Assembly (NCBI GenBank): GCA_023136775.1
Contig: JAGLQO010000011.1
Span: 34,528-98,527, forward strand
Source of the DNA: Candidatus Pacearchaeota archaeon
Lineage (GTDB): Archaea > Nanobdellota > Nanobdellia > Pacearchaeales > GW2011-AR1
Length of the DNA: 64,000 nt
Direction of reading: 5' to 3'
The position numbers were made by a program, and so were the translations under genes. The notes beneath the pieces were generated by a model. It saw nothing but the letters and a program-made list of their open reading frames with translations, had not been told where the DNA came from and did no database searches. Every line of letters starts with the position of its first letter. Position 1 is the first letter of the stretch. Of the stretch, positions 1-61,953 are shown piece by piece.

Positions 1-1920
1 TTAAGCCTGATAGATAATGCCGTGAAACTTTACGGAAAAATGGAGAATTCTTGGAGAATTCAACAAATGTCGGTTGTCGGTAAAAATTTTGGGTTTGATG
101 TTATAACTCCTATTGAGAAATTAACTAAGGAGCAATATGAAATTTTAATGCATGGAAGTAATAAGCCTATTTATGGGAAGTGGTCTTCGGGAGCTCAAAT
201 GAAAATGGAAGATGGATGGGAAGGACTAATTCCTCAAAGCGAAAGATTATACAAACAAACTGAATCAGATTATAGAAGACGACAACTTGAAAAATTTATG
301 CGAAGTCAGATTTGCCCAAGCTGTGGAGGGAAAAGACTTAGAAAAAAGATTTTAGCAATTACTGTCAATAAAAAAAATATTTCTGAAGTTACGGACATGT
401 CAATTGTGAAATGTATTGAATTTTTTGATAAGTTAAAATTAACCGACAAAGAAATGGAGATTGCAAAATTAATTTTAAAAGAAATAAAAGAGCGATTGAG
501 TTTTTTACAAAGTGTAGGTTTATCATATTTGACTTTGTCTAGAAAAGCCGGGACCTTATCTGGCGGAGAAGCTCAAAGGATTAGACTCGCAACTCAGATT
601 GGTGCGAATCTTATGGGAGTTATGTATATTTTAGACGAGCCTTCAATTGGCCTTCATCAAAGAGATAATCGAAAATTAATTGATACGCTTCATAAACTTA
701 GAGATTTGGGAAATACTTTGATTGTTGTTGAGCATGATGAGGATACGATTCGTGAGGCTGATTATGTTGTTGATATGGGACCTGGTGCTGGGATTCATGG
801 TGGAGAAATAATTGCAAAGGGAACACCAAAACAAATTGAAAAAAACAAAAATTCTTTGACTGGGCAATATTTGTCTGGAGAAATGAAAATTGAAACTCCT
901 AATCGTAGAAAGCAAAGTAATAAATATATTAATATAACAGGATGTAAAGAAAATAATTTGAAAAACATCGATGTGAAAATTCCAATAGGAATTATGACTT
1001 GCGTTACTGGGGTTTCAGGTTCTGGAAAATCAACCTTAATTAATAGTATTTTAAGTAAGGGAATGGAAAAGAAATTGGCTAAAGATTCTAAGGTTCGTCC
1101 TGGGAAGCATAAAGAAATTACTTTGGATTCAAAAATTGATAAAGTGATTGTTATTGATCAGTCTCCAATTGGGAAAACTCCGCGAAGTAATCCTGCAACT
1201 TATATTAAAGTTTTTGATGAAATTAGAACTTTATTTGCTAGTACTCGTGAAGCTAAAATTCGGGGATATAAACCTGGACGATTTTCGTTTAATGTTCCTG
1301 GCGGGAGATGTGAGAAATGTCAGGGAGACGGAACAATAAAAATAGAAATGAATTTTTTACCTGATGTTTATGTCGAATGTGAAGAATGCAAGGGGAAGCG
1401 ATATAATAAAGAGACTTTGCAGGTTTTGTATAAGGGGAAAAATATTGCACAAATTTTGGACATGAGCGTTGAAGAAGCTTTGGAAACTTTTGAAAATGTA
1501 TCTTCTATTTATACAAAACTTGAAACTTTAAATCGTGTGGGCTTGGGATATATTAAACTTGGACAAAGCTCAACAACTCTTTCTGGCGGGGAATCTCAAA
1601 GGATTAAGTTAACGAAGGAGCTAGCAAAAAGAGGAACTGGGCAAACTCTTTATTTATTGGATGAACCGACGACTGGGCTTCATTTCCACGACGTTAGAAA
1701 ACTTCTTCGAGTAATTGAGGGATTGGTTGATAAAGGAAATACGATGGTTATAATTGAACATAATTTAGATGTAATAAAATACGCCGACCATATAATTGAC
1801 CTCGGACCCGAAGGTGGAGAGGGTGGAGGAACTGTTTTAGCAACTGGTGCACCTGAAGATATTGTTAAAGTTAAAGAATCTTATACTGGAAAATTTCTTA
1901 AGGAAGTATTAAAAAATTGA
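1..1920 (+). CDS. uvrA: Excinuclease ABC subunit A (UvrA), 5' end cut by window edge
   Basis: Frame is open from nt 1. Two ABC signatures ([24 protein letters not shown]), Walker [10 protein letters not shown], Walker [13 protein letters not shown], zinc-finger cysteines CPSCGG and [16 protein letters not shown]. Confidence 0.95.
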
Positions 1921-3719: not shown

Positions 3720-5270
3720 ATGGTAAATCTGACTAAAATTCCGAACAATCCTGGATGTTATTTACATAAAGACAAATTTGGAAAAATTATTTATGTTGGG
3801 AAGGCTAAGAATTTGAAGAAACGGGTTAATAGCTACTTCAACAAAATCCATGAAGACGCAAAAACAAATGCTTTAGTTTCTCATATTGTAAAAACAGATT
3901 TTATTATAACAGATTCAGAAGTCGAAGCTTTGATTTTGGAAAATAATTTAATTAAGAAAAATAAACCAAAATATAATATAGATTTGAAAGATTCCAAAAG
4001 ATATGCGTTTATTCAAATTACTTCTGAAGAATTCCCAAGACTTATTATTGCAAGAAAACGAGAGGGTAAAGGTAAATTTTTTGGACCGTTTGTTTCTGGA
4101 ATGAGTCGAGATTATGTTCTTGAAGCTTTGAAGAAAATTTTTAAAATTAGAACTTGTAGAAAACTTCCAAAAAGAAAATGTATTAGATATGATATTGGGC
4201 TTTGCTCTGCCCCTTGTATAAAGAAGATTTCTAAAGAAGATTATTTGGAAAGTATCAAGGGATGTGAAATGGTTCTTCGAGGGAAAACTTCGCAATTAGT
4301 AAAAACTTTGACGTTTAAAATGAAAGAGTTTTCTCGCAATCAAGATTTTGAAAGAGCATTATCTACTCGTAACCAAATTAGAGCAATAAAAGAATTAGGG
4401 GATAAACAAAAAATGGAAAGACAAAAAGATTATGATGAAGATATAATTAATTGGATTATCCACGATGGGATTGTTCATTTAATGTTATTTAATTCCAGAA
4501 AGGGGATTTTAGAAAACAAACAAGATTTTGAATTTGATTTTAAAGATGATTTTTTAGAAGAATTTTTAGTCCAATATTATTCAGAAAATGAAATTCCTCA
4601 AGAGATTATTTTGCTAGAAAAAGTTGACGCAGTTGTCAAGGAATTTTTAGAGAAAACTTCAAAACACAAAGTAAAAATTACTATGCCGCAAAAAGGTGAC
4701 AAGAAAAACTTATTGGATTTAGTTAAGAAAAATATTGAAATAAATTTATTTGGGGATTCTGAAAAAGTAGAAGATTTGAGAATTAAATTAAAACTTCAAG
4801 AAGTACCTGCCGTGATTGAGTGTTTTGATATTTCGCATTTATCTGGAACCTCCACTGTTGCTTCAATGGTTCAATTTAGAAATGGAAAAGCAGATAAATC
4901 AAATTATAGAAAATATAAAATTCGAACTGTTTCTGGAATTGATGATTTTGCCTCAATGGAAGAAGTTGTCCATCGTAGATATTCAAAATTAAAAAACGAA
5001 AATCTTCCAATGCCAAATTTAATTGTTGTTGATGGCGGGAAGGGGCAGCTTAGTTCAAGTATGCAAGTTTTAGAAAATCTTGATTTGAAAGTTCCGTTAA
5101 TATCTTTAGCAAAACGAGAAGAAGAAGTTTTTGTTCCAGGAAAATCAGAACCAATTATTTTGAGTAAAAAAAGTAAGGCTTTAAAGTTACTACAGGAAAT
5201 TCGAAATGAAGCTCATCGATTTGCAATTACTTATAATCGATTATTAAGGATTAAGAAAGTTAGGGCGTAA
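3720..5270 (+). CDS. uvrC: Excinuclease ABC subunit C (UvrC), short form without the C-terminal (HhH)2 domain
   Basis: GIY-YIG N-terminus (GCYLHKDKFGKIIYVGKAKNLKKRVNSYF), UVR-like QDFERALSTRNQIRAIKEL, endonuclease domain IECFDISHLSG. ORF ends at ..EAHRFAITYNRLLRIKKVRA. Confidence 0.9.
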   Translation: MVNLTKIPNNPGCYLHKDKFGKIIYVGKAKNLKKRVNSYFNKIHEDAKTNALVSHIVKTDFIITDSEVEALILENNLIKKNKPKYNIDLKDSKRYAFIQITSEEFPRLIIARKREGKGKFFGPFVSGMSRDYVLEALKKIFKIRTCRKLPKRKCIRYDIGLCSAPCIKKISKEDYLESIKGCEMVLRGKTSQLVKTLTFKMKEFSRNQDFERALSTRNQIRAIKELGDKQKMERQKDYDEDIINWIIHDGIVHLMLFNSRKGILENKQDFEFDFKDDFLEEFLVQYYSENEIPQEIILLEKVDAVVKEFLEKTSKHKVKITMPQKGDKKNLLDLVKKNIEINLFGDSEKVEDLRIKLKLQEVPAVIECFDISHLSGTSTVASMVQFRNGKADKSNYRKYKIRTVSGIDDFASMEEVVHRRYSKLKNENLPMPNLIVVDGGKGQLSSSMQVLENLDLKVPLISLAKREEEVFVPGKSEPIILSKKSKALKLLQEIRNEAHRFAITYNRLLRIKKVRA

Positions 5271-9546: not shown

Positions 9547-10983
9547 ATGGAAGAAAAAGAATTTGAGGAATTATTAAATGAATTACTTTCTTATGGGCAA
9601 GAAACAGAATGGATTGAATTTAAGAAAAATAATTCTAGTCCTGAAGAAATTGGAGAATATGTTTCTGCATTATCCAACTCTGCTTGTCTTTCAAAAAGAA
9701 ATCATGGCTATTTGGTTTATGGTATTGATAACGATTCTTTGGAGATAATCGGAACCAAAGTAAGCTTCAAAAATATGAAAAAAGGTGGACAGGAAATTAA
9801 TCATTGGTTAACTATGAGCTTAGATCCTAAAATAGATTTTAGAATAATTGAAAACATGATTGATGATAAAAGGATTGTTATAATTGAAATAGACTGTGCA
9901 AATTCTAGACCAATAAGATTTAAGGGTGTTGCATATATAAGAATCGGGAGTTCAAAAGATAGGTTAGACAAACATCCTCAAAAAGAAAAGAAACTTTGGG
10001 ATATTCTTAATCATAAGAATTTCGAGGATGGAATTACACTTGAAAAAGTTGATGAGAATAAAGTAATTGAACTTTTAGATTACCCCGCATACTTTAATTT
10101 AATGAAATTAGAATTGCCAACAAACAAATCAGCTATTTTAGAAAAGCTAGAACAAGAATGTTTGATTTTGAAAAAAGGTAAAAAATATTCTATAACAAAT
10201 TTAGGAGGAATATTATTTGCAAAAGATTTATCTCAATTTCCAAATCTTGCAAGAAAAATCATTAGGATAATAATTTATAGAGGGAACAATAAATTAGAAA
10301 CTATAAGAGAAGAATCAAGTAATAAGGGATATGCAATTGCCTATCAAGAGTTAGTAAAATTTATTATGGATCAGTTGCCAACAAATGAAGTAATTGATAA
10401 TGCCTTAAGAAAAAAAGTTGAGATGTTTCCAGAGATTGCGATAAGGGAATTGTTGGCGAACACAATTATTCATCAAGATTTTACAGAAAAAGGAATGAAT
10501 CCTATGATTGAAGTTTATTCAAACAGGATTGAATTTATCAATGCGGGGAGACCTCTAATTAAGCCAAGTAGATTTATTGATTATCCTCCAAAATCCAGAA
10601 ATGAAAAATTAGCGGACTTTATGAGGAGAATAAATATTTGTGAAAGGCGTGGAAGTGGAATTGATAAGGTTATTAATTCTGTAGAAATTTTTCAACTCCC
10701 TGCTCCAGAATTTATTGATGGAGAAGATTTTATGCAAGTGATTTTGTATTCTCATAGGAGGTTTAGGGAGATGGATAAAAAAGATAGGATCCGGGCATGT
10801 TATCAGCATTGTGTTTTGAAATATATTTTTAAAGAGTTTATGACTAATGAGAGTTTGAGGGAGAGGTTCAGTATTAGTAAGAAAAATTACCCAATGGTTT
10901 CGAGGGTTATTCGAGATGCTATTGGAGCAGAGGTTATTCGAAAGGATAAAGAAACTAAAAAGTATGTTCCGTTTTGGGCTTGA
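9547..10983 (+). CDS. AlbA_2 (Schlafen-like divergent AAA) plus HATPase_c_4-type ATP-binding protein, often annotated RecG-like transcriptional regulator
   Basis: N-terminus ETEWIEFKKNN..EIGEYVSALSNS..GYLVYGI is typical of the AlbA_2 domain. C-terminal IRELLANTIIHQDF..RGSGIDKV is HATPase-like. Terminal wHTH-like tail. Confidence 0.6.
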   Translation: MEEKEFEELLNELLSYGQETEWIEFKKNNSSPEEIGEYVSALSNSACLSKRNHGYLVYGIDNDSLEIIGTKVSFKNMKKGGQEINHWLTMSLDPKIDFRIIENMIDDKRIVIIEIDCANSRPIRFKGVAYIRIGSSKDRLDKHPQKEKKLWDILNHKNFEDGITLEKVDENKVIELLDYPAYFNLMKLELPTNKSAILEKLEQECLILKKGKKYSITNLGGILFAKDLSQFPNLARKIIRIIIYRGNNKLETIREESSNKGYAIAYQELVKFIMDQLPTNEVIDNALRKKVEMFPEIAIRELLANTIIHQDFTEKGMNPMIEVYSNRIEFINAGRPLIKPSRFIDYPPKSRNEKLADFMRRINICERRGSGIDKVINSVEIFQLPAPEFIDGEDFMQVILYSHRRFREMDKKDRIRACYQHCVLKYIFKEFMTNESLRERFSISKKNYPMVSRVIRDAIGAEVIRKDKETKKYVPFWA

Positions 10984-13166: not shown

Positions 13167-14543
13167 TTATTCTATTTTAGAACTTTCTAAATACTCTCTT
13201 AAATCGTGTTGATTTCTAAGCATTCTCATATGAAAGCGTTCGTAATATTCTGGATTAATATCTGCATATTTTATTAATCTACGATAAAGATGTATGCTTT
13301 CATCAAGGTATCTAAATAATTCATGTGTTGCTCTTTTGCTTATTTTTTCTGACCTAAAATACCTTAATAATCTTGATTGCAGTCTGTCTTCCAAATGAAA
13401 TAGTTCCTCTAACATAGCTGGATGGAAATTATCTTCTTCAGAAATCATATCTAAAAAATGCATTAATCTTTCTTGATGATTTCTAATGTCATACATCACA
13501 TCTTTATTTAACTTTAAATCTTCTGCAATATACATTAAACGATGATTTAGTCTTTCTTGCCTCATTATAAATTCTCTAAAGAAAGGATGCCTGAAACTTT
13601 TTTTATCTTTAAATTTTTTATGCATAAGATAATTTCTTTCTTCAGCTAAGAGTCTCATTCTTTTAATTTCTTTTATTGATTCCTCTCCAACATTTTCTTT
13701 AAAATGAATTGAGGCAAATTTCAGAAAATTGTCAGAAGTATACATTTCAAAATCTATTTCCCCTATATCAAAAATTTCTTTTTTTAATTCATATCTTGGA
13801 GAAAAGGGTTTTTCATATTCTATTATCCACCAATCTTCTTTAGTGTCGTCAGTTACAAAGATAACAGGTTTATCTATTGTTTTACTAAAATTCAAAATCT
13901 GCTTCCATATTATTAAATCTCCAAATTTTTCCTCTCCTTCTTTTTCTCCTCCATTTGCTTTATCGTCTGCATACCCTGGAGGAATTTTATCTTTAAACCT
14001 TTTTTCTCCTTCTTTAAAGACTTCTTTTAATTCTTTATTAGAGAACTTCTCCCCAAAATTATCAAATATTTGTTCTATTTGTTCTAAAATAGTATCACTA
14101 TTTTTCCACTTTGGATGTGAAGATTTTATTTTTGTTATTTCTTCTGTTATTGAATTTAAACTACTTTCAACTTTACCATAAACTTCATCTGTATTTAACA
14201 AAGGATGATTTTCACAAGCAGTTTTTAATTTGCCCTGAAATTTATTAGAAAATGTGGTGGAAAAACTAGTAATTGTATTAATAGCATCTTGATAATTTTT
14301 TTCCAAACCTATTATAACAGAACGTCTATTTTTATGATATTCTTTTAGCACTTGATGAGGAGTCCATAGTCTATCATCTTTTTTTAAAATTTTTAAAATT
14401 TTTAAAAAATCATTTCTAGCTTTTTTATTCATTCTATAAAGTCCTTGTAAAATATTTGTGTCAAATATAAAAATTGCTTCATTCCATATTTTTTTAAGCT
14501 GTGGTTTTGAATATTGATAATACTCTTTGAATTCTTTTTGCAT
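13167..14543 (-). CDS. PIN-like nuclease domain protein with a C-terminal His/Arg-rich helical repeat region
   Basis: N-terminus IFIFDTNILQGLY, WTPHQVLKEY, and GDLIIWKQIL..PVIFVTDDTKEDWW, the hallmark of PIN-like (PIN_8-type) domains. C-terminal repeats of H..RL/ERL motifs. Confidence 0.5.
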   Translation of the reverse strand: MQKEFKEYYQYSKPQLKKIWNEAIFIFDTNILQGLYRMNKKARNDFLKILKILKKDDRLWTPHQVLKEYHKNRRSVIIGLEKNYQDAINTITSFSTTFSNKFQGKLKTACENHPLLNTDEVYGKVESSLNSITEEITKIKSSHPKWKNSDTILEQIEQIFDNFGEKFSNKELKEVFKEGEKRFKDKIPPGYADDKANGGEKEGEEKFGDLIIWKQILNFSKTIDKPVIFVTDDTKEDWWIIEYEKPFSPRYELKKEIFDIGEIDFEMYTSDNFLKFASIHFKENVGEESIKEIKRMRLLAEERNYLMHKKFKDKKSFRHPFFREFIMRQERLNHRLMYIAEDLKLNKDVMYDIRNHQERLMHFLDMISEEDNFHPAMLEELFHLEDRLQSRLLRYFRSEKISKRATHELFRYLDESIHLYRRLIKYADINPEYYERFHMRMLRNQHDLREYLESSKIE

Positions 14544-14977: not shown

Positions 14978-17173
14978 ATGGAAAAACAAAATAATAAATT
15001 CAAATTGGCTAGTCGATATAAGCCTAAAGGTGACCAACCGAAAGCTATTAAAAATTTAATTGAAGGAATAAAGACTGGTAAAAAAATGCAGACATTGCTT
15101 GGGGTAACTGGAAGTGGGAAAACTTTTACAATGGCTAATGTAATTTCTAAAATTAATAAACCAACTTTAATTGTTGCTCATAATAAAACTTTGGCGGCTC
15201 AATTATATGAAGAAATGAGGGAATTTTTTCCGAATAATCGAGTTGAATATTTTATTTCTTATTATGATTATTATCAACCTGAAAGTTATATGCCTGTGCG
15301 TGACCAATATATCGAGAAGGATTCTGCTATTAATCCGAGGATTGAACAAATGCGTCATGCAACAACGGCTTCGTTATTATCTAGAAATGATGTTATTGTA
15401 GTGGCTAGTGTTTCTTGTATTTACGGAATGGGAGACCCTAAAGTTTACAAGATGATGGGATTAGATCTCGAGGTTGGTAAACCTCTTGAGGTAACAGGTG
15501 ACGGGTCTGGGGTAACAGGTGACGGGTCTGGGGTAACAGGTGACGGGTCTGGGGTAACGGGTAACGGGTCTGGGGTAACGGGTAACGGGTCTGGGGTAAC
15601 GGGTAACGGGTCTAGGGTAACGGGTGACGGGTCTAGGGTAACGGGTGACGGGTCTAGGGTGACGGGTGACGGGTCTGGAGTAACGGGTGACGGGTCTAGG
15701 GTGACGGGTGACAGGTCTAGGGTGACGGGGCGGAAGGCGCTTATTACTAAACTTGTTGCGATGACTTTTGAGAGAAATGATTTGGATTTAAGTTCGGGTC
15801 GGTTTAGAGTTAAGGGCGACACGATTGATTTAGTTCCTGGATATTCTAATAATATAATTCGTGTAGAATTTTTTGGGGATGAGATTGATCGCATTACTGA
15901 GATTGATAAAAATACTGGAGAGGCTCTCGAAAAAATGAAATATTTTTATATTTGGCCTGCTCGAAATTATGTTGTTCCTGAGGCTGTTTTTGATGGGGCA
16001 ATTGCGGATATACAGGCTCAACTTAAAATTGATTTGAAGGAAATAGCTGATCCTTTGATTAATCATCGGTTGAAACAAAGAACGACTTTCGATATTGAGA
16101 TGATGCGGGAGACTGGAACTTGTAAGGGAATTGAGAATTACTCTCGGCATTTTGATAATCGAAAAGAGGGCGAGAAGGCTTATTGTTTATTGGATTATTT
16201 TGGAGATGATTTTTTAATGATTATTGACGAGTCGCATAGGACTGTTCCGCAAGTTGGGGGGATGTTTAATGGGGATAGGGCTCGGAAGAAAAATTTAATT
16301 GATTATGGATTTAGGTTGACTTCGGCGTTTGATAATCGTCCCTTGAGGTTTAAGGAATTTGAGAAATATATGAAAGATAGTCAAGTTGTTTTTGTTTCGG
16401 CGACGCCTGGTGAATATGAACTTAGGGAATCTAAAACTATTGTTGAGCAAATTATTCGGCCAACTGGTTTGACGGACCCTGAGATTGAGATACGGGGAGT
16501 TGAGAAACAAATTCCAGATGCGCTTTCGGAAATTAAGAAGACTGTTGCGAATGGGGATAGGGTTTTGCTTACAACTTTGACTAAGAGGATGGCTGAAGAA
16601 TTAACTGACTTCTTAGCGGAGAATGGGATTAAAACTCGATATTTGCATTCAGAAATTGACACATTTGAAAGAACGGAAATAATTCGGGAACTTCGTGTTG
16701 GGACTTTTGATGTTTTGGTTGGGATTAATTTGCTTCGTGAGGGAATTGATATTCCTGAGGTTGGATTTGTCGGAGTTCTTGACGCTGATAAAGAGGGATT
16801 CCTTCGAGATGAGAGAAGTCTTATTCAAATTATTGGACGAGCTGCTAGGAACTCATCAGCTAAAGTTGTTCTTTATGCTGATAAAATGACTAAATCAATT
16901 CGTGGGGCGGTTAGAGAAACTTCGAGAAGACGAAAAATTCAGATGGCGTATAATTTGAAGAATAATATTAAGCCTCAAACTATTGTTAAACCAATTCGAG
17001 AAAGCCGAGTTGAAATTAAGGACACTAAGCATATTCCAAAAGCAGATATTCCGAATATTATTATTCAGCTGGAGGCTGAGATGAGAGAGGCTGCTGAGTT
17101 GTTGGATTTCGAGACTGCGATTGCTCTTCGGAATAAGATGAAAGGATTAAGTAAGAGGATAGAGAGAAAATAA
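14978..17173 (+). CDS. uvrB: Excinuclease ABC subunit B (UvrB) carrying an internal heptad-repeat insertion
   Basis: GVTGSGKTFT, YYDYYQPESY beta-hairpin region, IIDESH, helicase motifs VLVGINLLREGIDIPEV and GRAARN, C-terminal UVR motif LDFETAIALRNKM. Confidence 0.95.
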   Translation: MEKQNNKFKLASRYKPKGDQPKAIKNLIEGIKTGKKMQTLLGVTGSGKTFTMANVISKINKPTLIVAHNKTLAAQLYEEMREFFPNNRVEYFISYYDYYQPESYMPVRDQYIEKDSAINPRIEQMRHATTASLLSRNDVIVVASVSCIYGMGDPKVYKMMGLDLEVGKPLEVTGDGSGVTGDGSGVTGDGSGVTGNGSGVTGNGSGVTGNGSRVTGDGSRVTGDGSRVTGDGSGVTGDGSRVTGDRSRVTGRKALITKLVAMTFERNDLDLSSGRFRVKGDTIDLVPGYSNNIIRVEFFGDEIDRITEIDKNTGEALEKMKYFYIWPARNYVVPEAVFDGAIADIQAQLKIDLKEIADPLINHRLKQRTTFDIEMMRETGTCKGIENYSRHFDNRKEGEKAYCLLDYFGDDFLMIIDESHRTVPQVGGMFNGDRARKKNLIDYGFRLTSAFDNRPLRFKEFEKYMKDSQVVFVSATPGEYELRESKTIVEQIIRPTGLTDPEIEIRGVEKQIPDALSEIKKTVANGDRVLLTTLTKRMAEELTDFLAENGIKTRYLHSEIDTFERTEIIRELRVGTFDVLVGINLLREGIDIPEVGFVGVLDADKEGFLRDERSLIQIIGRAARNSSAKVVLYADKMTKSIRGAVRETSRRRKIQMAYNLKNNIKPQTIVKPIRESRVEIKDTKHIPKADIPNIIIQLEAEMREAAELLDFETAIALRNKMKGLSKRIERK
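15491..15730 (+). repeat. In-frame 21-nt tandem repeat, 11.4 copies, encoding (VTG[DN]GS[GR])n inside uvrB
   Basis: Counted directly: gtaacaggtgacgggtctggg x3, then gtaacgggtaacgggtct(g/a)gg variants, then gtgacgggtgacgggtctagg variants. G-rich in an AT-rich gene. Confidence 0.9.
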
Positions 17174-20250: not shown

Positions 20251-23200
20251 TTGCGTTTTACAAAAATCGCAAAAGTAAACAAATCTGATATAAAAAAGAA
20301 ATTAATTAAACTAGGAGTCAAAGAAGAACTGGTTCCCGTTTTTGACAGTTTCGTAAACAATAAATTTCAGGCTGAAGCATTGGATATTTTCAAAAAGTTA
20401 GAGATTTCTAAAGAAAGGATTAACACAAAAAACGAAAGTAATATTTTAATTCGGTGGAGAAATAGAAGTTATGATGTAAGTATTGAGATTATCAACGACG
20501 AAATGTTTCATTACTGCACTTGTCCTCATAGAAGCGAAGCTAAAGCTTGTTCTCATGCGGGAGCTACGCTGATTTACAAGATGCTAAGAAACGAAAAAAA
20601 TGAATTTAATTCTAAACCAAAAACTTTAATGAAAGCTCAAGAGACCAATAAGAAAAATCAGGGTGGAATTACTTATTTTAAAGAATTATTTCCAACAGTA
20701 AAAAAAGAAGCTCAGAAAAATGTCATTTATTTTAACTTTGAAGACTTCGATGAAAATGGGCAAAATTTAGCTTTACAGCGAGGAATTATCAAGAAAGATG
20801 GTGAACATTCCCTCCCAATGAAACTTACTGGAAAAGATTTTAGTTTTAGTAAATTAAAAGTTAATAAAAAAGTAAAAGAGGTTTTGAGCTTTATTATAAC
20901 TGGTGACAATCTCCGGGAAGGTTATAGCACTGGTGGATTTTCCAAAAGTAGATTTTATGATGTTAATACTGATATGATGATGCCGCTTTTGAAAGAAATT
21001 TATTTTGACGAGCAAGAATTAATTCTTGGGGCAACTTTTGCTGAAGATAATTTTCATGTAGCATGGGAAACCAAATTGAATGATGACGGAGATTATACCG
21101 TTAAGCCTTATTTTGTTTCTGGAAAAAGAAAAGTTGATTTATTAAAAATGCAAATTACAGAACTCGGATTAAACAGTCTTTGGGTTTTTGACAACAAGAC
21201 TAGGTGCTTTTACCAACATAAAGAATCTTTGAATTTGGAAGCTGTTAAAAATATCATTAGATTTCCAAAAGAATTAACTTTGTCAGAAAGTGAGCTTCGA
21301 GAATTTTTTGAAAGATATTACCAACAAATGCTTGATAGTTTCGAATTTAATGTTGGTGACGATTTTAAAAGAGAAGAAAAATCAGTTATTCCAAAACCTA
21401 AGTTATATATGGAGCGAGATGGGAAGAATGTTAGAATCGCTTTGAGATTTGATTACGCTGGTCGAGAGATTGATTATTTTTCTGCTAATAAAGAATTGGT
21501 AATTGTCGAGACTGATATTATTTATGATGTATCTAGAGACTTAGAAGAGGAAGACAGAATTGCCGAACTCTTAAATGAACATGATGTTGTTACGCACGGA
21601 AGATATGACGAATTTAAAATAAAGGGGGACCTTGTAGATTTTGTTGTTTATGAAATTCCCGCGATTAATGAAATGGGAATTGAAATACTTGGAGAAGAAA
21701 ATTTGTTTAATTTTAAGATTGCAAAAGGAAAAGTTGGAATGATGATGGAAGTCAGAAACGATGTCGATTGGTTTGATATTAAAGGTGAAGTTAGATTTGG
21801 AAAAGATAAAATTGGAATGGGAAAAGTTTTAGAATCAGTTTTTCAGAATAAAAGATTTGTTGATTTAGGGGACGGCAAAAAAGGAGTTATTCCTAAAAAT
21901 TGGATTAACGAGCTTAGAGCTTATCGCGGATTTTTTACTGCTGGCAAAGAAGGTGGAGTCAAATTAAACAAATATCATATGCCAGTACTGGAAAGTTTAA
22001 TTAGCCTTTCAAAGAAAAGCGAACTTGATCTGGCTGTTAAAAAAATTGTGTCGAAGTTTAAAAACTTTGAAAAAATTAAATCAACTAAACTATCTCCAAA
22101 TTTAAATGCTACACTTCGTGAATATCAAAAAGATGGCTATGATTGGTTGAACTTCCTTCGAGACTTTGAGTTTAACGGAATTTTAGCAGACGATATGGGA
22201 CTTGGTAAAACTGTGCAAACTTTAAGTATTTTGCAAAAAATTAAGGATGAAGAGAAGAATAAAAAGTTCTTAGTTATTGTTCCAACTTCCTTGGTTTTTA
22301 ATTGGAGAAATGAAATTGAGAAATTTACTCCTGGGATTAAACCTTATTTACATCATGGAGTATCGCGAGCTAAGGGCGAGAAGAAATTTGATAAAATGAT
22401 TGAGGACCACGATTTGATTATTACAACTTATGGTGTTTTGAAAAATGATTTGGCACTTTTTGTGAATAGAGAGTTTGAATACATTATATTAGATGAAGCT
22501 CATACAATTAAGAATCCCTTGAGTGTAAATGCAAGAACTGTTGGGGCACTTAATGGAAAAAGAAAGTTAGCAATTAGTGGAACACCAATTCAAAATAATT
22601 TAATTGAACTTTGGAGTTTATTTGAATTCTTGAGTCCTGGATATTTAGGAACTTATGATGGGTTTAAAGAAAACTTTGTTATCCCAATTGAAAAAGATAA
22701 AGATAAAAATGCAACGGCTAATTTGAAAAAAATGATTGATCCATTCCTACTTCGTAGAAACAAATCCAACATTGCGACAGAACTTCCCGACAAAACTGAA
22801 ATTGTATTAAAGAGTGATTTCAACGACGATGAAGCTGTTATTTATCAAACTTGGAAAGATCATTATAGCTCGGAAATTAACCGAAGTATTAAAGATAAAG
22901 GGATTAACAAATCTCGTTTGAAGATTTTAGAAGGATTAACTAAGCTTCGTCAAGTTTGTTTGCATCCGAAAATGGTTGATCCAGAATATATGGGAAGCAG
23001 TGCTAAGTTTGATTTGTTGATGATGGAAGTTGAAAAAGTTCTAAAGGAAGGTCATAAGGTTTTGATTTTCTCTTCATTTGTTAAAATGTTAAATATTGTT
23101 AAAGAGGAATTTGAACATAAGGGAATTAAGTATTCTTATCTTGACGGCTCTTCTATTAATCGTGAAAGAATTGTAGGGGAATTCCAAAATAGCAAGGAAG

Positions 23201-23505
23201 CAAGACCTTTCTTGATTTCAATTAAAGCTGGCGGAGTTGGAATTAATTTGACTAGTGCTGATTATGTTTTCATTATTGATCCATGGTGGAATCCAGCTGT
23301 AGAAATGCAGGCAATGGATAGGGCTCACAGAATCGGTCAAAAAAACCCAGTATTCGTTTACAAAATGATTGCTAACAAGTCTATTGAAGAAAAGATTTTA
23401 GAGTTACAGAGATCGAAGAAAAAACTAGTTGAAGATGTAATTTCTGTTGAAGAGGGCGGAGTTAAGGCAATTGATGCTAAGGCAATAAAGGAAATATTCG
23501 GGTAG
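20251..23505 (+). CDS. SNF2-family helicase with an N-terminal SWIM zinc finger
   Basis: SWIM CxCx(n)CxH (YCTCPHRSEAKACSHAGA), DDMGLGKTVQ, DEAHTIKN, QAMDRAHRIGQ. There is no in-frame ATG upstream of the SWIM finger, so the start is TTG at 20251 or uncertain. Confidence 0.85.
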   Translation: MRFTKIAKVNKSDIKKKLIKLGVKEELVPVFDSFVNNKFQAEALDIFKKLEISKERINTKNESNILIRWRNRSYDVSIEIINDEMFHYCTCPHRSEAKACSHAGATLIYKMLRNEKNEFNSKPKTLMKAQETNKKNQGGITYFKELFPTVKKEAQKNVIYFNFEDFDENGQNLALQRGIIKKDGEHSLPMKLTGKDFSFSKLKVNKKVKEVLSFIITGDNLREGYSTGGFSKSRFYDVNTDMMMPLLKEIYFDEQELILGATFAEDNFHVAWETKLNDDGDYTVKPYFVSGKRKVDLLKMQITELGLNSLWVFDNKTRCFYQHKESLNLEAVKNIIRFPKELTLSESELREFFERYYQQMLDSFEFNVGDDFKREEKSVIPKPKLYMERDGKNVRIALRFDYAGREIDYFSANKELVIVETDIIYDVSRDLEEEDRIAELLNEHDVVTHGRYDEFKIKGDLVDFVVYEIPAINEMGIEILGEENLFNFKIAKGKVGMMMEVRNDVDWFDIKGEVRFGKDKIGMGKVLESVFQNKRFVDLGDGKKGVIPKNWINELRAYRGFFTAGKEGGVKLNKYHMPVLESLISLSKKSELDLAVKKIVSKFKNFEKIKSTKLSPNLNATLREYQKDGYDWLNFLRDFEFNGILADDMGLGKTVQTLSILQKIKDEEKNKKFLVIVPTSLVFNWRNEIEKFTPGIKPYLHHGVSRAKGEKKFDKMIEDHDLIITTYGVLKNDLALFVNREFEYIILDEAHTIKNPLSVNARTVGALNGKRKLAISGTPIQNNLIELWSLFEFLSPGYLGTYDGFKENFVIPIEKDKDKNATANLKKMIDPFLLRRNKSNIATELPDKTEIVLKSDFNDDEAVIYQTWKDHYSSEINRSIKDKGINKSRLKILEGLTKLRQVCLHPKMVDPEYMGSSAKFDLLMMEVEKVLKEGHKVLIFSSFVKMLNIVKEEFEHKGIKYSYLDGSSINRERIVGEFQNSKEARPFLISIKAGGVGINLTSADYVFIIDPWWNPAVEMQAMDRAHRIGQKNPVFVYKMIANKSIEEKILELQRSKKKLVEDVISVEEGGVKAIDAKAIKEIFG

Positions 23506-30075: not shown

Positions 30076-30201
30076 TGATCCCGCCGGGATTTGAACCCGG
30101 GACCTCTAGCTTTCTTCGACGAAGCTATTTTAGAGAGCTTCAATTCCGTAGAATTGATGTCATATAAGACTAGCGCTCTGACCAGGCTGAGCTACGGGAT
30201 C
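30076..30201 (-). tRNA. tRNA-Ile, anticodon UAU, with a 51-nt intron at position 37/38
   Basis: Hand-folded. Acceptor gatcccg/cgggatc plus discriminator A, D arm gctc-agcctggtca-gagc, anticodon stem ctagt/gctag, loop ct-TAT-aa, T arm ccggg-ttcaaat-cccgg. No encoded CCA. Confidence 0.75.
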
Positions 30202-40380: not shown

Positions 40381-40471
40381 AGCCTGGCATGGGGATCAAA
40401 CCCACGACCTCCGCATAATTGGAACCCTAAGGCTTACCAATGCGACGCTCTATCAACTGAGCTAACCAGGC
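40381..40471 (-). tRNA. tRNA-Thr, anticodon GGU, with an 18-nt intron at 37/38
   Basis: Hand-folded. Acceptor gcctggt/gccaggc, D arm gctc-agttgata-gagc, anticodon stem tcgca/tgcgg, loop tt-GGT-a[intron agccttagggttccaatt]a, T arm gtggg-tttgatc-cccat. Intron ccaat pairs with attgg of the anticodon region. Confidence 0.8.
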
Positions 40472-52066: not shown

Positions 52067-52293
52067 AAATCGAAATATTAGGGTCAGGTTGTCCGAATTG
52101 TAAGAGGTTGGAGGAAAATGTGAAAATAGCATTAGGGGAAATGGGAAGAAAAATAGAGATTGATAAAGTAACTGAAATTGATAAAATTATTAATTATGGA
52201 GTTATGTCTACTCCTGCGATAGTTGTAAATGGAGAAGTAAAAAGTTATGGAGAAGTAAAAAGTGTTGAAGAAATTAAGGAGATATTAAAATGA
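52063..52293 (+). CDS. Thioredoxin-fold redox-active disulfide protein 2 family
   Basis: 76 aa. MKIEILGSGCPNCKRL..VMSTPAIVVNGE. ATGA overlap with the arsR-like gene. Confidence 0.8.
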   Translation: MKIEILGSGCPNCKRLEENVKIALGEMGRKIEIDKVTEIDKIINYGVMSTPAIVVNGEVKSYGEVKSVEEIKEILK

Positions 52294-59766: not shown

Positions 59767-61953
59767 ATGAAAGAGAATAAGGTTGACAGTTCGTTAGATT
59801 ATATTAAAATTCTTAAAGCTTTGATGGAATTACCGTTTCAGGTTGGAAAGGGTTTGTTGTCAGATTTTTTGAATGGGAATTATTCTAATAAATCTATAAT
59901 TAAAAATCGGTTGGATGAATTAGATAATTTTGATACGCTTTCTTGGAGTAAGGATAAAATATATCATGAAATTGATAAATTGACAGCGAACGGAATGATT
60001 AATTTGGCAACTAGTGATTATAATAAATTTATTAAAATTTTGGAGCTTACGATTAAAGGACGAAATGAAATTAATAATCCGACTTTGCTTGAAAAAAAAT
60101 TAGCTAATAAAATTGATTTTAAGAAAACTGAAATTACTGAGACCGACAGAGAAATATTCAAAGCGTTGGATAGTTTTCTTGGGAATTTTAATGACGAGCA
60201 GAAGAAGGCGATTATTTCGGGAAGTAAAAATTTGCTTTGTGTTGCTGGAGCTGGTTCGGGGAAAACAACGGTTCTTACTAAGCGAATAGAATTTTTGGTT
60301 AAATATAAATCCGTTGACCCTTCTAAAATTTTAGCAATTACTTTTACTAAGAAAGCTCGGGAAGAAATGGAAAAACGGCTTTATGCTCTCGGTGTTAACA
60401 GCGTAAGAGTCCATACTTTTAATTCGTTTTGTGAGGGAATTTTGAGAAATCATGAAACCGAAATTTATGGAAGACCAATTAGAGTTCAATCTTATGGAGA
60501 TAAAATTTTAGCTATGAATATGGCGCTTGGGAATATGGGACTTGATATGCAGGATGCAATTAATGATTACTTTACTGTTGCTCAGAGGAAATTTAAAACA
60601 GGAAGTCAGTTATCTAATTCTTTTATGAATGACTGTTTCTCGGTTATGGATTATTTTAAAGTGACTGGTGAGACTGAATACAATTGGAGTAAAGACGCCG
60701 ACGCTAAGAATAAAAATAATGCTGAAAGAATTTTTAAGATTACAAAATATTTGAAAGAGCATATGATGATTCAGGGACTTCGAGATTATACTGACCAACT
60801 TATTGATGCGATTAAATTTCTGAAATCTTCACCAGAAAATATTCCTCAATTTGATTATGTTTTGGTTGACGAATATCAGGATGTTAATGCGATGCAAATT
60901 GAGTTGATTGGACTACTTAATCCAGGGAATTTATTTGCTGTGGGCGACCCTCGTCAATCTATTTTTGGATGGAGAGGTTCAGACATAAATTATATTTTAA
61001 AATTCGAAGAGACTTATGGGGAATGTGAAGTTGTTCATCTGACTAAGAATTATCGAAGTTCTAAAGAGATTGTTGAATTTATGAATCATTCTATAACTGA
61101 GATGGGACTTCCTGACATCCAAGCTTCGCTTGGGGTGAGGGGTGAGGGGTCTGAGGTGAGGGGTCAAGAAAATGCGAGGATTAAGATTCTTGATTTTGGG
61201 AGCGAAGAAAGTGAGCGAGCTTTTGTTATTAAAAATATAATTGATAATGATACTCCGAATAGTGAAATTTTTGTCTTGGCTAGAACTAATCGGCAACTTA
61301 TGGAACTTTCTAGATTGATGAAGATGCGTGGGATTTCTCATGTTGTTAAAACTGATGAGGTGAAAAATCCTAAGGATATGAAAGAGGGCGATGTTACTCT
61401 TGCGACGATTCATGCGATTAAGGGGCTTGAGGCTAAGAAGGTTTTTGTTATTGGAAGTAATGAGCAAAATTTTCCATGTAAGGCTAGCGATCATCCAGCT
61501 ATTGAAATGGTAAAGACTGATAATTACGATAAGGAAGAAGAAGAGCGTCGGTTGTTTTATGTTGCGATTTCTAGGGCTAAGGAAATTTTGTATGTTACTT
61601 ATTCGGGGAAGAAACCTACTTATTTTTTGAATGACGAGATGATGGGGATTGGGAGCGATAAGATTAGTTCGTTTTCTAAAGCAAAACCTAAGGGTGCTGA
61701 GAAAATTTTTGACGAGGATTTGGATGATGATTTGATTGGGGAGTTGAAGAGTTGGCGGTTGACTGTGGCTGAGGAGCAAAATGTTCCGGCTTATGTTGTT
61801 TTGACTAATAAGACGATTGATGATATTGCTCGTAAGATGCCAAAGGATGCTATTGAACTTTCTGGGGTTAGTGGGATTGGTCCTAATAAGTTGGTTAATT
61901 ATGGGAATAGGATTTTGGAGATAGTTAGGGAAATCACTCTGAAGAGTGATTAG
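59767..61953 (+). CDS. UvrD-like superfamily 1 helicase with an N-terminal wHTH-like domain and a C-terminal HRDC-like domain
   Basis: VAGAGSGKTT, LVDEYQDVN, NYRSSKEI, TIHAIKGLEA, FYVAISRAK. C-terminus VPAYVVLTNKTIDDIARKMP..LSGVSGIGPNKL. Confidence 0.85.
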   Translation: MKENKVDSSLDYIKILKALMELPFQVGKGLLSDFLNGNYSNKSIIKNRLDELDNFDTLSWSKDKIYHEIDKLTANGMINLATSDYNKFIKILELTIKGRNEINNPTLLEKKLANKIDFKKTEITETDREIFKALDSFLGNFNDEQKKAIISGSKNLLCVAGAGSGKTTVLTKRIEFLVKYKSVDPSKILAITFTKKAREEMEKRLYALGVNSVRVHTFNSFCEGILRNHETEIYGRPIRVQSYGDKILAMNMALGNMGLDMQDAINDYFTVAQRKFKTGSQLSNSFMNDCFSVMDYFKVTGETEYNWSKDADAKNKNNAERIFKITKYLKEHMMIQGLRDYTDQLIDAIKFLKSSPENIPQFDYVLVDEYQDVNAMQIELIGLLNPGNLFAVGDPRQSIFGWRGSDINYILKFEETYGECEVVHLTKNYRSSKEIVEFMNHSITEMGLPDIQASLGVRGEGSEVRGQENARIKILDFGSEESERAFVIKNIIDNDTPNSEIFVLARTNRQLMELSRLMKMRGISHVVKTDEVKNPKDMKEGDVTLATIHAIKGLEAKKVFVIGSNEQNFPCKASDHPAIEMVKTDNYDKEEEERRLFYVAISRAKEILYVTYSGKKPTYFLNDEMMGIGSDKISSFSKAKPKGAEKIFDEDLDDDLIGELKSWRLTVAEEQNVPAYVVLTNKTIDDIARKMPKDAIELSGVSGIGPNKLVNYGNRILEIVREITLKSD
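61135..61167 (+). repeat. About 1.6 copies of a 21-nt G-rich unit related to the uvrB repeat, in-frame in the helicase
   Basis: gtgaggggtgaggggtctgag gtgaggggtcaa encodes VRGEGSE VRGQ. 17 of 21 nt match the uvrB unit gtgacgggtgacgggtctagg. Confidence 0.6.

What the first reader, a model, noticed from the sequence alone, without database searches (positions are those of the whole stretch)
15491..15730. uvrB carries an in-frame array of 11.4 copies of a 21-nt G-rich repeat (VTGDGSG heptads) with strong G-quadruplex potential
An exact-period 21-nt repeat is inserted between UvrB residues ..LDLEVGKPLE and RKALITKLVAMTFERND... By alignment with E. coli UvrB this is the start of domain 2, the UvrA-interacting domain. 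It encodes VTGDGSG x3, VTGNGSG x2, VTGNGSR, VTGDGSR x2, VTGDGSG, VTGDGSR, VTGDRSR and VTG.

Unit variants are arranged in blocks, the pattern left by slippage or unequal crossover, so copy number is probably variable. The tract is far more G+C-rich than the rest of the gene. On the coding strand it reads GGG(G)-N3-4 repeated more than a dozen times (for example ggggtaacgggtaacgggtctggggtaacggg), a textbook G4-forming motif, inside a gene whose product scans DNA for distortions. Because the period is a multiple of 3, the reading frame survives expansion and contraction.

Possible meanings are a flexible linker that tunes UvrA-UvrB contact, a contingency-type length-variable locus, or a selfish microsatellite tolerated in a surface loop.
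Basis: partly seen in the sequence, partly recalled or inferred. Interest (0 to 1): 0.72.

Follow-up and report, generated by a model that had tools for sequence, protein, structure and literature searches.

The report
Unstable G-rich repeat inside archaeal uvrB
An otherwise intact DNA-repair gene (uvrB) of an uncultured DPANN archaeon carries a real 21-base G-rich tandem repeat whose copy number differs between two assemblies; it adds an 80-101 residue glycine-rich loop at an insertion-tolerant surface site and is most likely a tolerated passenger, not a new function.

Summary
Window 15491-15730 holds 11.4 in-frame copies of a 21-nt unit inside an intact uvrB (731 aa). The array sits exactly between the residues equivalent to Bacillus caldotenax UvrB E168 and R169, ten residues into the UvrA-interaction domain.

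New findings:
- A second public assembly of the same strain has identical flanks (21.9 kb, no SNPs) but 14.4 copies, a 63-nt difference.
- None of the 59 closest UvrB homologues has the array, though five have 3-10 aa inserts in the same loop.
- The 21-mer is three G-rich heptamers (GGGTRAC-GGGTRAC-GGGTCTR). TCT replaces TGA/TAA in the one phase where a stop would be read.
- A 1.6-unit copy, 19/21 identical and in the same frame, lies in a variable loop of a UvrD-like helicase gene 45 kb away.
- G4 motifs are abundant by sequence rules, but predicted stability is no better than the base composition gives.

Best reading: a young, slippage-prone coding minisatellite tolerated in a permissive loop. 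It is akin to in-frame tandem repeats in archaeal Borg elements and to bacterial G-rich heptamer repeats. Functional tuning of UvrA-UvrB contact, or a contingency switch, is unsupported. Moderate interest; a new member of a known kind.

The parts
14978..17173 (+). uvrB gene (731 aa), intact, carrying the array
   Evidence: NCBIfam UvrB equivalog NF003673 scores 956.9 bits against a cutoff of 743. All Pfam UvrB domains are present. PDB 9gy7_E matches at E=1.4e-226. The gene keeps every invariant column of a 60-sequence alignment, including GSGKT 45-49, DESH 417-420 and R266.
15491..15730 (+). In-frame array of 11.4 copies of a 21-nt unit (aa 172-251). Each unit is three heptamers, GGGTRAC-GGGTRAC-GGGTCTR, read as V-T-G-D/N-G-S-G/R.
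   Evidence: TRF, pattern search, unit table. Lag identities are 7: 0.65, 14: 0.66, 21: 0.95, and all others <=0.36. The other two + frames of the unit contain TGA or TAA, as read directly from the sequence.
15680..15721 (+). Units 10-11. The junction 15700|15701 is where the longer allele has three extra units (3 x GTGACGGGTGACGGGTCTAGG, 63 nt).
   Evidence: Comparison of L123 with the window and k-mer test.
15461..15490 (+). Left anchor of the insert: last strand before it (aa 162-165) plus GKPLE
   Evidence: AF2 model: strand E162-165, block pLDDT 85-90 just before the insert. Pfam UvrB_inter profile positions 1-10 map here once the insert is removed.
15731..15775 (+). Right anchor: helix aa 251-261, then E265-R266 (codon 15773-15775). 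R266 is the equivalent of the UvrA-contacting Arg183.
   Evidence: AF2 helix H251-261, pLDDT 88. R266 is invariant. Arg183's role in UvrA binding is taken from PMC3458569. The numbering offset comes from the 2fdc alignment, 252<->169.
61133..61165 (+). Second, short copy (about 1.6 units) of the same G-rich 21-mer, GGGTGAGGGGTGAGGGGTCTG AGGTGAGGGGTC, read in the same frame (VRGEGSE VRGQ)
   Evidence: It is 19/21 identical to the uvrB unit. It is the only other hit with <=5 mismatches in the window, against 0 in 20 shuffles. Best local alignment is 27/34, score 20, against a maximum of 13 for 3334 other tiles. It is absent from 49 homologues, which read LPDL-EHH-NEFEN at this position.
59767..61953 (+). 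UvrD-like helicase gene (RQC + UvrD + HRDC domains, 728 aa) that hosts the second tract
   Evidence: Pfam; homologues.
22..1920 (+). uvrA, cut by the window start; partner gene of uvrB
   Evidence: Pfam UvrA_DNA-bind and ABC_tran.
3720..5270 (+). uvrC, a single 516-aa ORF; partner gene of uvrB
   Evidence: Pfam GIY-YIG, UVR, UvrC_RNaseH.

Best explanation
The tract is a young, hypermutable, in-frame minisatellite (a coding VNTR) inside a functional uvrB of a DPANN ('Candidatus Pacearchaeota') archaeon.

Its 21-nt unit is a triplet of G-rich heptamers. Only whole 21-nt units are gained or lost, presumably by replication slippage or unequal recombination between adjacent near-identical units, so the reading frame is always kept. 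The one heptamer phase in which TGA or TAA would be read as a codon carries TCT instead.

The encoded 80-aa (or 101-aa) Gly/Val/Thr/Ser/Asp-rich segment leaves and re-enters the protein at a single point. That point is a surface loop between the first strand and the first helix of domain 2, and related UvrB proteins also carry small insertions there. The fold and the UvrA-binding residues are therefore preserved, and the insert is carried as a neutral or mildly costly passenger.

The G-richness, with quadruplex-prone GGG tracts on the non-template strand, probably contributes to the instability.

Shown here: the array, the frame, the site, the intact gene, its absence from relatives, two length alleles, and the related tract in a second gene. 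Inferred: the slippage mechanism, near-neutrality, and any role of G4.
For: - The array is real and periodic.
- The gene is intact, passes the UvrB equivalog cutoff and keeps all invariant residues. uvrA and uvrC are intact in the same window.
- The insertion is clean at E168|R169 with no residues lost. Removing it restores a contiguous UvrB_inter match.
- The 59 closest homologues (65-81% identity) lack it. Five of them (P0007, P0017, P0019, P0022, P0042) have 3-10 aa inserts at the same loop.
- The cluster mate P0121 (752 aa), on ENA contig L123, has 14.4 copies. The 10.5 kb to the left and 11.4 kb to the right are 100% identical to the window. The tract therefore changes faster than point mutations accumulate.
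- Identical units occur in runs (AAA, BB, DD, and GGG in the long allele), as expected from one-unit duplications.
- In the full-length AF2 model the only low-confidence segment is aa 173-248 (block pLDDT 23-38, no secondary structure), between well-modelled flanks.
- Codon usage in the tract is foreign to the gene, so the sequence is shaped by amplification, not by translational selection.
- Known parallels exist: in-frame tandem repeats with units divisible by 3 that create disordered regions in archaeal Borg elements (PMC9879509), G-rich heptamer quadruplex-forming repeats in bacteria (PMC4692102), and idiosyncratic G-rich simple repeats in single archaeal genomes (PMC8044849).
Against: - Raw reads could not be examined. 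For k <= 31 every k-mer of the short allele also occurs in the long allele, so the 11.4-copy form could be an assembler shortcut and not a second allele.
- Neutrality is inferred only from uniqueness and site tolerance. An 80-101 aa appendage 14 residues from the UvrA-contacting arginine could affect complex formation.
- The insert folded alone by AF2 gives a regular one-strand-per-heptad beta model with pLDDT 70-76. This conflicts with the disordered-loop picture.
- Simple local slippage does not explain why a 19/21-identical unit sits in the same frame in a second helicase gene.
Confidence: 0.6

Rival explanations
1. Templated or copied G-rich element. The 21-mer is not home-grown in uvrB. 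It is a small sequence module that has been copied between loci, or from a common G-rich heptamer source elsewhere in the genome, by template switching, ectopic conversion or filler-DNA insertion during break repair. It then amplified in uvrB.
For: The second tract in the UvrD-like helicase is 19/21 identical to a uvrB unit. It is in the same reading frame and has the same TCT stop-avoiding heptamer. It is the only such match in 64 kb. In both genes it is a lineage-specific insert in a variable loop. The tract's composition and codon usage are foreign to both genes. The 21 nt upstream of the array match the unit at only 9/21 positions by my own reading, so no clear local seed is visible.
Against: Only two loci are seen, and the rest of the genome was not available. 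No hits to the shared 25-nt pattern were found in JGI metagenomes or IMG/VR. No mobility gene or terminal structure is associated. Two loci could also arise by a single chance conversion event.
Confidence: 0.2
2. Adaptive, length-tunable appendage of domain 2. The repeat is a flexible linker or a folded beta-roll that modulates UvrA-UvrB or UvrB-UvrB contacts, with copy number tuning repair activity.
For: The insert lies inside the UvrA-interaction domain, 14 residues before the equivalent of Arg183. Domain 2 also takes part in UvrB dimer and DNA contacts (PMC3458569). The frame is maintained. Folded alone, AF2 predicts 12 regular strands with pLDDT 70-76. There is a very weak Pfam similarity to a grass antifreeze beta-roll, E=0.31.
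Against: The array is unique to one strain-level lineage: absent from the 59 closest homologues aligned, and the 90%-identity cluster has only the two alleles. Half of the six variable unit positions change the amino acid (D/N, G/R), so the peptide is not tightly conserved. In the full-length AF2 model the insert is unstructured. Foldseek finds no significant match (best E=0.11, TM<=0.28). From general knowledge, AF2 tends to draw solenoids for perfect repeats.
Confidence: 0.1
3. Contingency or regulatory locus. Copy-number change, 7-nt slippage or G-quadruplex folding in the DNA or mRNA switches or throttles uvrB expression, producing repair-proficient and mutator subpopulations.
For: The tract is hypermutable, with two alleles and zero flanking SNPs. 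There are 20 canonical G4 motifs on the non-template/mRNA strand. Both other frames hold TGA or TAA, so a 7- or 14-nt slip would truncate UvrB. A precedent exists for repeat-mediated switching of a repair gene: the 6-bp repeats in Salmonella mutL (PMC2955026).
Against: The only observed change is 63 nt, which is in frame. Adjacent heptamers differ, so 7-nt slippage is disfavoured, and at most about 2.7 identical heptamers are contiguous. With quadruplexes allowed, the predicted fold is -74.9 kcal/mol against -86 +/- 13 for composition-matched shuffles, so there is no sign of selection for G4. No frameshifted allele is on record.
Confidence: 0.07
4. Assembly artefact: the tract, or its length, does not exist in the organism.
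For: It was assembled from short-read metagenomes. The array (240-303 nt) exceeds typical read length. Two assemblies disagree on copy number, and the short form has no private k-mers up to k=31.
Against: At least two independent assemblies recover the same ordered series of ten variant units at the same position in the gene. The longest internal exact repeats are only 50 and 72 nt, which 150-nt reads can resolve. The long allele has private k-mers from k=17. The frame is preserved and the flanks are perfect.
Confidence: 0.03

Closest known systems
In-frame tandem repeats (aaTRs) of archaeal Borg elements (Schoelmerich et al. 2023, PMC9879509)
   Same: These are nucleotide tandem repeats inside ORFs with unit length divisible by three. 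They are recently formed, fast evolving and absent from homologues. They are flanked by a partial unit, use codons atypical for the host gene, and encode low-complexity, mostly disordered segments.
   Different: Borg repeats are A-rich, nearly perfect, pervasive across the element and enriched in extracellular or membrane proteins. This tract is G-rich (48% G) and 94% perfect. It lies in a chromosomal housekeeping repair gene of a DPANN archaeon, and only two loci were seen in 64 kb.
G-rich heptameric quadruplex-forming simple repeats of bacteria: GGGAATC in Xanthomonas and GGGGA(C/T)T in Nostoc (Rehm et al. 2015, PMC4692102); also the homogeneous GGGTGAC/GGGTAAC/GGGTCTG arrays found here in many bacterial genomes
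   Same: They share a 7-nt period with one G3-4 tract per unit, many consecutive G tracts and variable unit number. Related oligonucleotides form G4 in vitro. The same heptamers occur as simple arrays in Streptomyces, Erwinia, Aliivibrio and others.
   Different: [quoted passage not shown] A pure (GGGTGAC)n cannot be translated, because TGA comes into every frame. Here three different heptamers alternate in fixed order, so the amplifying unit is 21 nt and one frame stays open.
Repeat-mediated allele switching in DNA-repair genes (6-bp repeats in Salmonella mutL; Chen et al. 2010, PMC2955026)
   Same: A small tandem repeat inside a DNA-repair gene changes copy number in frame by slipped-strand mispairing.
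   Different: In mutL the change of one unit lies in the ATP-binding region and converts the protein between functional and defective states. Here the tract is in a surface loop, is 11-14 units long, and no functional consequence is known.
Canonical UvrB domain 2 / UvrA-interaction domain (PDB 3fpn, 3uwx, 2fdc, 3v4r)
   Same: All residues of the domain are present and alignable, including the equivalent of Arg183.
   Different: No solved or closely related UvrB has an insertion of this size at E168|R169. Related DPANN proteins show only 3-10 aa there.

Membership tests
UvrB (excinuclease ABC subunit B) | Full-length match to the curated equivalog model above its cutoff | tested here: met
   NF003673 scores 956.9 bits (cutoff 743) and TIGR00631 scores 927.4 (cutoff 750.1).
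UvrB (excinuclease ABC subunit B) | Helicase motifs, UvrB interaction domain, UvrB signature and C-terminal UVR domain all present | tested here: met
   Pfam ResIII/DEAD, UvrB_inter, Helicase_C, UvrB and UVR all match. GSGKT 45-49, DESH 417-420 and R266 lie in invariant columns.
UvrB (excinuclease ABC subunit B) | Partner genes uvrA and uvrC present in the genome | tested here: met
   uvrA at 22-1920 (cut by the window start) and uvrC at 3720-5270.
In-frame coding tandem repeat (VNTR / aaTR) | Head-to-tail copies with unit length divisible by three and the ORF preserved | tested here: met
   Period 21, 11.4 copies, 0 indels. The 731-aa ORF is uninterrupted.
In-frame coding tandem repeat (VNTR / aaTR) | Copy number differs between otherwise identical genomes | tested here: met
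   11.4 against 14.4 copies with 21.9 kb of identical flanks. Caveat: the short form could be an assembler shortcut at k<=31.
In-frame coding tandem repeat (VNTR / aaTR) | Absent from orthologues (recent origin) | tested here: met
   The 59 closest homologues lack it. The nearest relative's DNA shows a clean 240-nt gap.
In-frame coding tandem repeat (VNTR / aaTR) | Encoded segment intrinsically disordered | tested here: inconclusive
   In the full-length AF2 model, aa 173-248 have block pLDDT 23-38 and are coil. Folded alone, the insert gives 12 strands with pLDDT 70-76. No significant structural match was found.
G-rich heptameric G4-forming simple repeats | 7-nt period with one G3-4 tract per unit and at least four consecutive tracts | tested here: met
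   Lag-7 identity is 0.65 and lag-14 is 0.66. There are 32 overlapping GGGTNNNGGGTNNNGGG matches and 29 G3+ runs.
G-rich heptameric G4-forming simple repeats | Array of one repeated heptamer, so the amplifying unit is 7 nt | tested here: not met
   Three different heptamers occur in fixed order. Lag-21 identity is 0.95 against 0.65 at lag 7, and the allele difference is 3 x 21 nt.
G-rich heptameric G4-forming simple repeats | Predominantly intergenic, with many copies dispersed over the genome | tested here: not met
   Both tracts are inside genes, and only two loci occur in 64 kb. The rest of the genome was not available.
G-rich heptameric G4-forming simple repeats | Quadruplex formation demonstrated | not testable with these tools
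   Only sequence rules and ViennaRNA with quadruplexes allowed were available. The result was 4 G4s in the minimum-energy fold, no better than shuffles.
Phase-variable contingency locus | Repeat-number change shifts the frame or promoter spacing and switches the gene on or off | tested here: not met
   The observed change is 63 nt, which is in frame. No frameshifted allele is in the cluster.
Intein | N-terminal Cys/Ser/Thr, C-terminal His-Asn followed by Cys/Ser/Thr, and splicing blocks | tested here: not met
   The insert starts with Val and ends ...VTG|R. There is no intein Pfam hit in the protein or the insert, unlike the relative P0052.

The most novel reading that the evidence does not exclude
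The 21-nt unit is a specialised, translatable derivative of a G-rich heptamer repeat, with its in-frame stop replaced by TCT. It propagates between genes of this archaeon and has colonised surface loops of at least two DNA-repair helicases, UvrB and a UvrD-like/RQC/HRDC helicase. Its copy number, or a folded beta-roll made of V-x-G-D/E-G-S-x heptads, or its quadruplex-prone DNA/RNA, would modulate repair activity. In effect it would be a self-spreading, length-variable module that tunes genome maintenance in a reduced-genome DPANN lineage.
Probability: 0.08. Interest if true: 0.7.

Novelty: new member of a known kind. Interest (0 to 1): 0.4.

Why it matters
This is a clean natural example of a housekeeping DNA-repair enzyme tolerating a large, unstable low-complexity insertion inside a partner-binding domain. 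It marks the E168|R169 loop of UvrB as permissive, which is useful for protein engineering and tagging.

It also shows how a non-translatable G-rich heptamer repeat can become translatable: it amplifies as a 21-nt triplet in which the stop-generating phase is altered.

If the length polymorphism is confirmed, it gives a strain-level marker for an uncultured DPANN archaeon. It would also be a test case for whether quadruplex-prone coding repeats destabilise archaeal genes.

It does not at present reveal a new mechanism of repair or regulation.

Tried and rejected
- The exact look-up of the 731-aa protein found no contig on record. The allele comparison therefore rests on the 752-aa cluster mate.
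- A protein search with the 80-aa repeat peptide returned nothing, not even the parent protein. It is uninformative, probably because of composition filtering.
No Pacearchaeota record was listed.
- Two metagenome scans (a 34-nt and a 25-nt pattern) and one viral scan found nothing.
- Foldseek on the isolated-insert model found no significant match. The Pfam hit to a grass antifreeze beta-roll has E=0.31, far below threshold.
- Rfam found no RNA family at the tract.
- The antisense ORF 15445-15894 (149 aa, PVTLDPS repeats) was rejected as a shadow of the repeat inside a well-supported gene.
- An intein was rejected from the terminal residues and the absence of intein domains.
- A pseudogene was rejected because all invariant residues and the partner genes are intact.
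- By my own reading, the 21 nt upstream match the unit at only 9/21 positions, so no convincing local seed for the repeat was found.
Full report
**1.

Tandem Repeats Finder reports one outstanding array in the window, at 15490-15729. It has period 21, 11.4 copies, 94% matches, no indels and a score of 368. The consensus unit matches 11 times with at most 3 mismatches, against none in 100 shuffles.

The array lies in ORF 14978-17173 (+), 731 aa.

G+C reaches 0.62 in the tract against 0.30-0.40 in the rest of the gene. GC3 is 0.56 against 0.29. The tract uses codons that are rare elsewhere in the gene: GGG, ACG, GAC, AAC and GTA instead of GGA, ACT, GAT, AAT and GTT.

**2. The host gene is an intact uvrB of a DPANN archaeon.**

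- The protein passes the NCBIfam UvrB equivalog models (956.9 bits against a cutoff of 743).
- It has all Pfam UvrB domains.
- It matches solved UvrB structures at E=1e-226 in two blocks that abut the insert.
- In a 60-sequence alignment it keeps every invariant column, including GSGKT, DESH and R266.
- An identical protein is recorded as coming from 'Candidatus Pacearchaeota archaeon'.
- uvrA (cut by the window start) and uvrC are intact in the same window.

A pseudogene is therefore not a tenable reading.

**3. Where the insert sits.**

The HMMER alignment to B. caldotenax UvrB (2fdc) ends at E168 before the insert and resumes at R169 after it. No residues are lost.

Pfam's UvrB interaction domain matches profile positions 10-91 after the insert. 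When the 80 residues are removed in silico it matches 1-91 as one piece, with a higher score of 100.8 against 92.1 bits. The insert is thus about ten residues inside domain 2, between its first strand and first helix.

The equivalent of Arg183 is R266. Arg183 is reported to mediate crucial contacts with UvrA (PMC3458569). R266 is invariant and lies 14 residues downstream, just past the C-terminal end of that helix.

**4. Comparison with relatives.**

- None of the 59 closest homologues (65-81% identity, 642-1171 aa) has the array.
- The nearest relative's DNA aligns with a clean 240-nt gap.
- Five relatives (P0007, P0017, P0019, P0022, P0042) carry 3-10 residue insertions in exactly this loop. 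The site is a natural indel hotspot.

**5. Length polymorphism.**

The 90%-identity cluster of this protein has one other member, P0121, of 752 aa. Its contig is ENA ERZ23498471, BioSample SAMN18200496, 102,859 bp, fetched as L123. It is 100% identical to the window over 10.5 kb to the left and 11.4 kb to the right of the array.

It differs only by three extra units (3 x GTGACGGGTGACGGGTCTAGG, 63 nt) between the window's units 10 and 11. That gives 14.4 copies.

Units 1-10 and the last units are identical in sequence and order in both assemblies. The tract is therefore independently reproduced, which argues against a chimeric artefact.

A k-mer test refines this:
- The long allele has private k-mers from k=17 and an internal exact repeat of only 72 nt, so it is resolvable with ordinary reads.
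- The short allele has private k-mers only from k=32. It is either a real second allele or a shortcut taken at small k.

Without reads, real polymorphism is probable but not proven. Either way, the tract is the only difference in 21.9 kb.

**6. Anatomy of the unit.**

The 21-mer is three G-rich heptamers: GGGTRAC, GGGTRAC and GGGTCTR. Self-identity is 0.65 at lag 7, 0.66 at lag 14 and 0.95 at lag 21, and at most 0.36 at every other lag.

Because 7 and 3 share no factor, a pure (GGGTGAC)n would bring TGA into every frame. In the 21-mer, the heptamer whose T-N-N falls in the codon register is TCT (Ser). The other two + frames contain TGA or TAA (read). Only one frame is open, and it is the one used.

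All six variable positions among units are G/A transitions. Three are synonymous and three change the residue (D/N, G/R). The peptide sequence is therefore not tightly constrained. Identical units occur in runs, the signature of one-unit duplications.

**7. A second locus.**

The pattern GGGTNNNGGGTNNNGGG, with at most 1 mismatch, occurs 35 times in the window against 0.09 expected. Of these, 32 are in uvrB and 3 are at 61133-61163.

That site reads GGGTGAGGGGTGAGGGGTCTG. It is 19/21 identical to a uvrB unit and is the only other match with at most 5 mismatches (0 in 20 shuffles). The best local alignment is 27/34, score 20, against a maximum of 13 for 3334 other tiles.

It is read in the same frame (VRGEGSE VRGQ) and has the same TCT heptamer. 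It lies in a UvrD-like helicase with RQC and HRDC domains. It replaces the usual EHH-NEFEN of 49 homologues in a loop that is variable across the family.

The helicase protein is recorded on two contigs including the 103,031-bp one, so this short tract does not vary between those assemblies.

Two lineage-specific inserts built from the same 21-mer suggest a shared origin or a shared generating process. This is the main thing that plain local slippage does not explain.

**8. Quadruplex potential.**

By sequence rules the claim is right. The tract has 29 G3+ runs, 20 of the window's 21 canonical motifs, and G4Hunter of 1.25 (peak 1.88), all on the coding (non-template) strand.

ViennaRNA with quadruplexes allowed places four three-layer G4s in the minimum-energy fold, at -74.9 against -50.5 kcal/mol without them. 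Composition-matched shuffles give -86 +/- 13. The potential is thus a by-product of G-richness, not an optimised feature.

Related G-rich heptamer repeats form G4 in vitro (PMC4692102). Formation in this organism is untested.

**9. Structure of the encoded segment.**

The insert is 35% Gly, 15% Val, 15% Thr, 14% Ser, 10% Asp and 7% Arg.

In the full-length AF2 model (mean pLDDT 79.8) the only segment below 50 is 173-248. It has block means of 23-38 and no secondary structure, and sits between a strand (162-165) and a helix (251-261) with pLDDT 85-91.

Folded alone, without an alignment, the insert gives 12 short strands, one per heptad, with pLDDT 70-76. Foldseek finds no significant match (best E=0.11, TM<=0.28), although the list is populated by beta-solenoids. 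Pfam gives only E=0.31 to a grass antifreeze beta-roll.

From general knowledge, AF2 readily draws solenoids for perfect repeats. I therefore lean towards a flexible loop, but the question is open.

**10. Interpretation.**

The best-supported account is a young, hypermutable, in-frame minisatellite tolerated in a permissive loop of a working UvrB (confidence 0.6). The rivals are:
- A copied or templated G-rich module (0.2). It is favoured by the second locus, but there are only two loci and no hits in the metagenome or viral scans.
- An adaptive, length-tunable appendage of domain 2 (0.1). Its restriction to one strain-level lineage and the loose peptide conservation weigh against it.
- A contingency or G4 regulatory switch (0.07). 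The only observed change is in frame, and G4 stability is compositional.
- An assembly artefact (0.03).

**11. Relation to what is known.**

The closest known kind is in-frame tandem repeats that create low-complexity protein segments, best documented in archaea for Borg elements. There, unit length is divisible by three, the repeats are recent and absent from homologues, and codon usage is atypical (PMC9879509).

The DNA motif resembles the G-rich heptamer, quadruplex-forming repeats of Xanthomonas and Nostoc (PMC4692102). It also resembles the homogeneous GGGTGAC, GGGTAAC and GGGTCTG arrays I found in many bacterial genomes. It fails two defining features of that class: a single repeated heptamer, and an intergenic, dispersed distribution.

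Idiosyncratic G-rich simple repeats confined to single archaeal genomes have been noted before (PMC8044849). Repeat-mediated in-frame allele switching in a repair gene is known for Salmonella mutL (PMC2955026), but a functional effect is not shown here.

**12. Verdict.**

It is probably length-variable and is structurally neat: a heptamer triplet that avoids stops. As far as the evidence goes, it is a lineage-private passenger, not a new mechanism. It is a new member of a known kind, with interest 0.4.

Noticed in passing
relatives P0011, P0017, P0019, P0021, P0022, P0033, P0042, P0053 (position equivalent to aa 510 of the window's UvrB, about nt 16507): Several DPANN UvrB proteins (845-952 aa) carry a 191-229 aa alpha/beta-hydrolase domain (PF06821) inserted inside the protein after the position equal to aa 510. 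One source annotates them as 'UvrB/predicted alpha/beta hydrolase family esterase'. This is a repair helicase with an embedded hydrolase domain.
   Followed up: partly
relative P0052 (1171 aa): This UvrB homologue has intein and LAGLIDADG-type domains (PF14528, PF14890) plus HTH domains in a 524-aa N-terminal extension or insertion.
   Followed up: no
window 30076-30201 (-) and 40381-40471 (-): Rfam finds two tRNA genes (58.6 and 45.5 bits) that ARAGORN missed. At 126 and 91 nt they are too long for plain tRNAs, so they are probably intron-containing archaeal tRNAs.
   Followed up: no
window 22-1920, 3720-5270, 9547-10983, 13167-14543, 14978-17173, 20251-23505, 48837-50768, 59767-61953: The window has an unusual density of DNA-repair and helicase genes: uvrA, uvrC, a Schlafen/AlbA_2-HATPase protein, a PIN_8 protein, uvrB, an SNF2 helicase, and two UvrD-like helicases, one of them with RQC and HRDC domains.
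   Followed up: partly
L001 3849-7378 / L002 3-2970 compared with window 3720-5270: In the nearest relative (80% identical UvrB), uvrC is called as two ORFs (204 aa GIY-YIG/UvrC_M and 315 aa RNase H-like) directly upstream of uvrB. In the window, uvrC is one 516-aa ORF 9.7 kb upstream, with unrelated genes in between.
   Followed up: no
window 61102-61190 region of helicase ORF 59767-61953; relatives P0124, P0144, P0161, P0164: The helicase loop that holds the second G-rich tract is also a hotspot for unrelated insertions of 10-45 aa in other DPANN homologues.
   Followed up: partly
window 52229-52272: There is a perfect 18-nt direct repeat (ATGGAGAAGTAAAAAGTT, 1.9-2.4 copies) just upstream of ORF 52290-52916.
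   Followed up: no
L010 5669-5776 (Aliivibrio fischeri ES114 chromosome II) and other loci L003-L122: Long homogeneous G-rich heptamer arrays are widespread in bacterial genomes, for example (GGGTCTA)15 in A. fischeri and (GGGTGAA)17 in L084. Several lie within long stop-free stretches on the opposite strand.
   Followed up: partly
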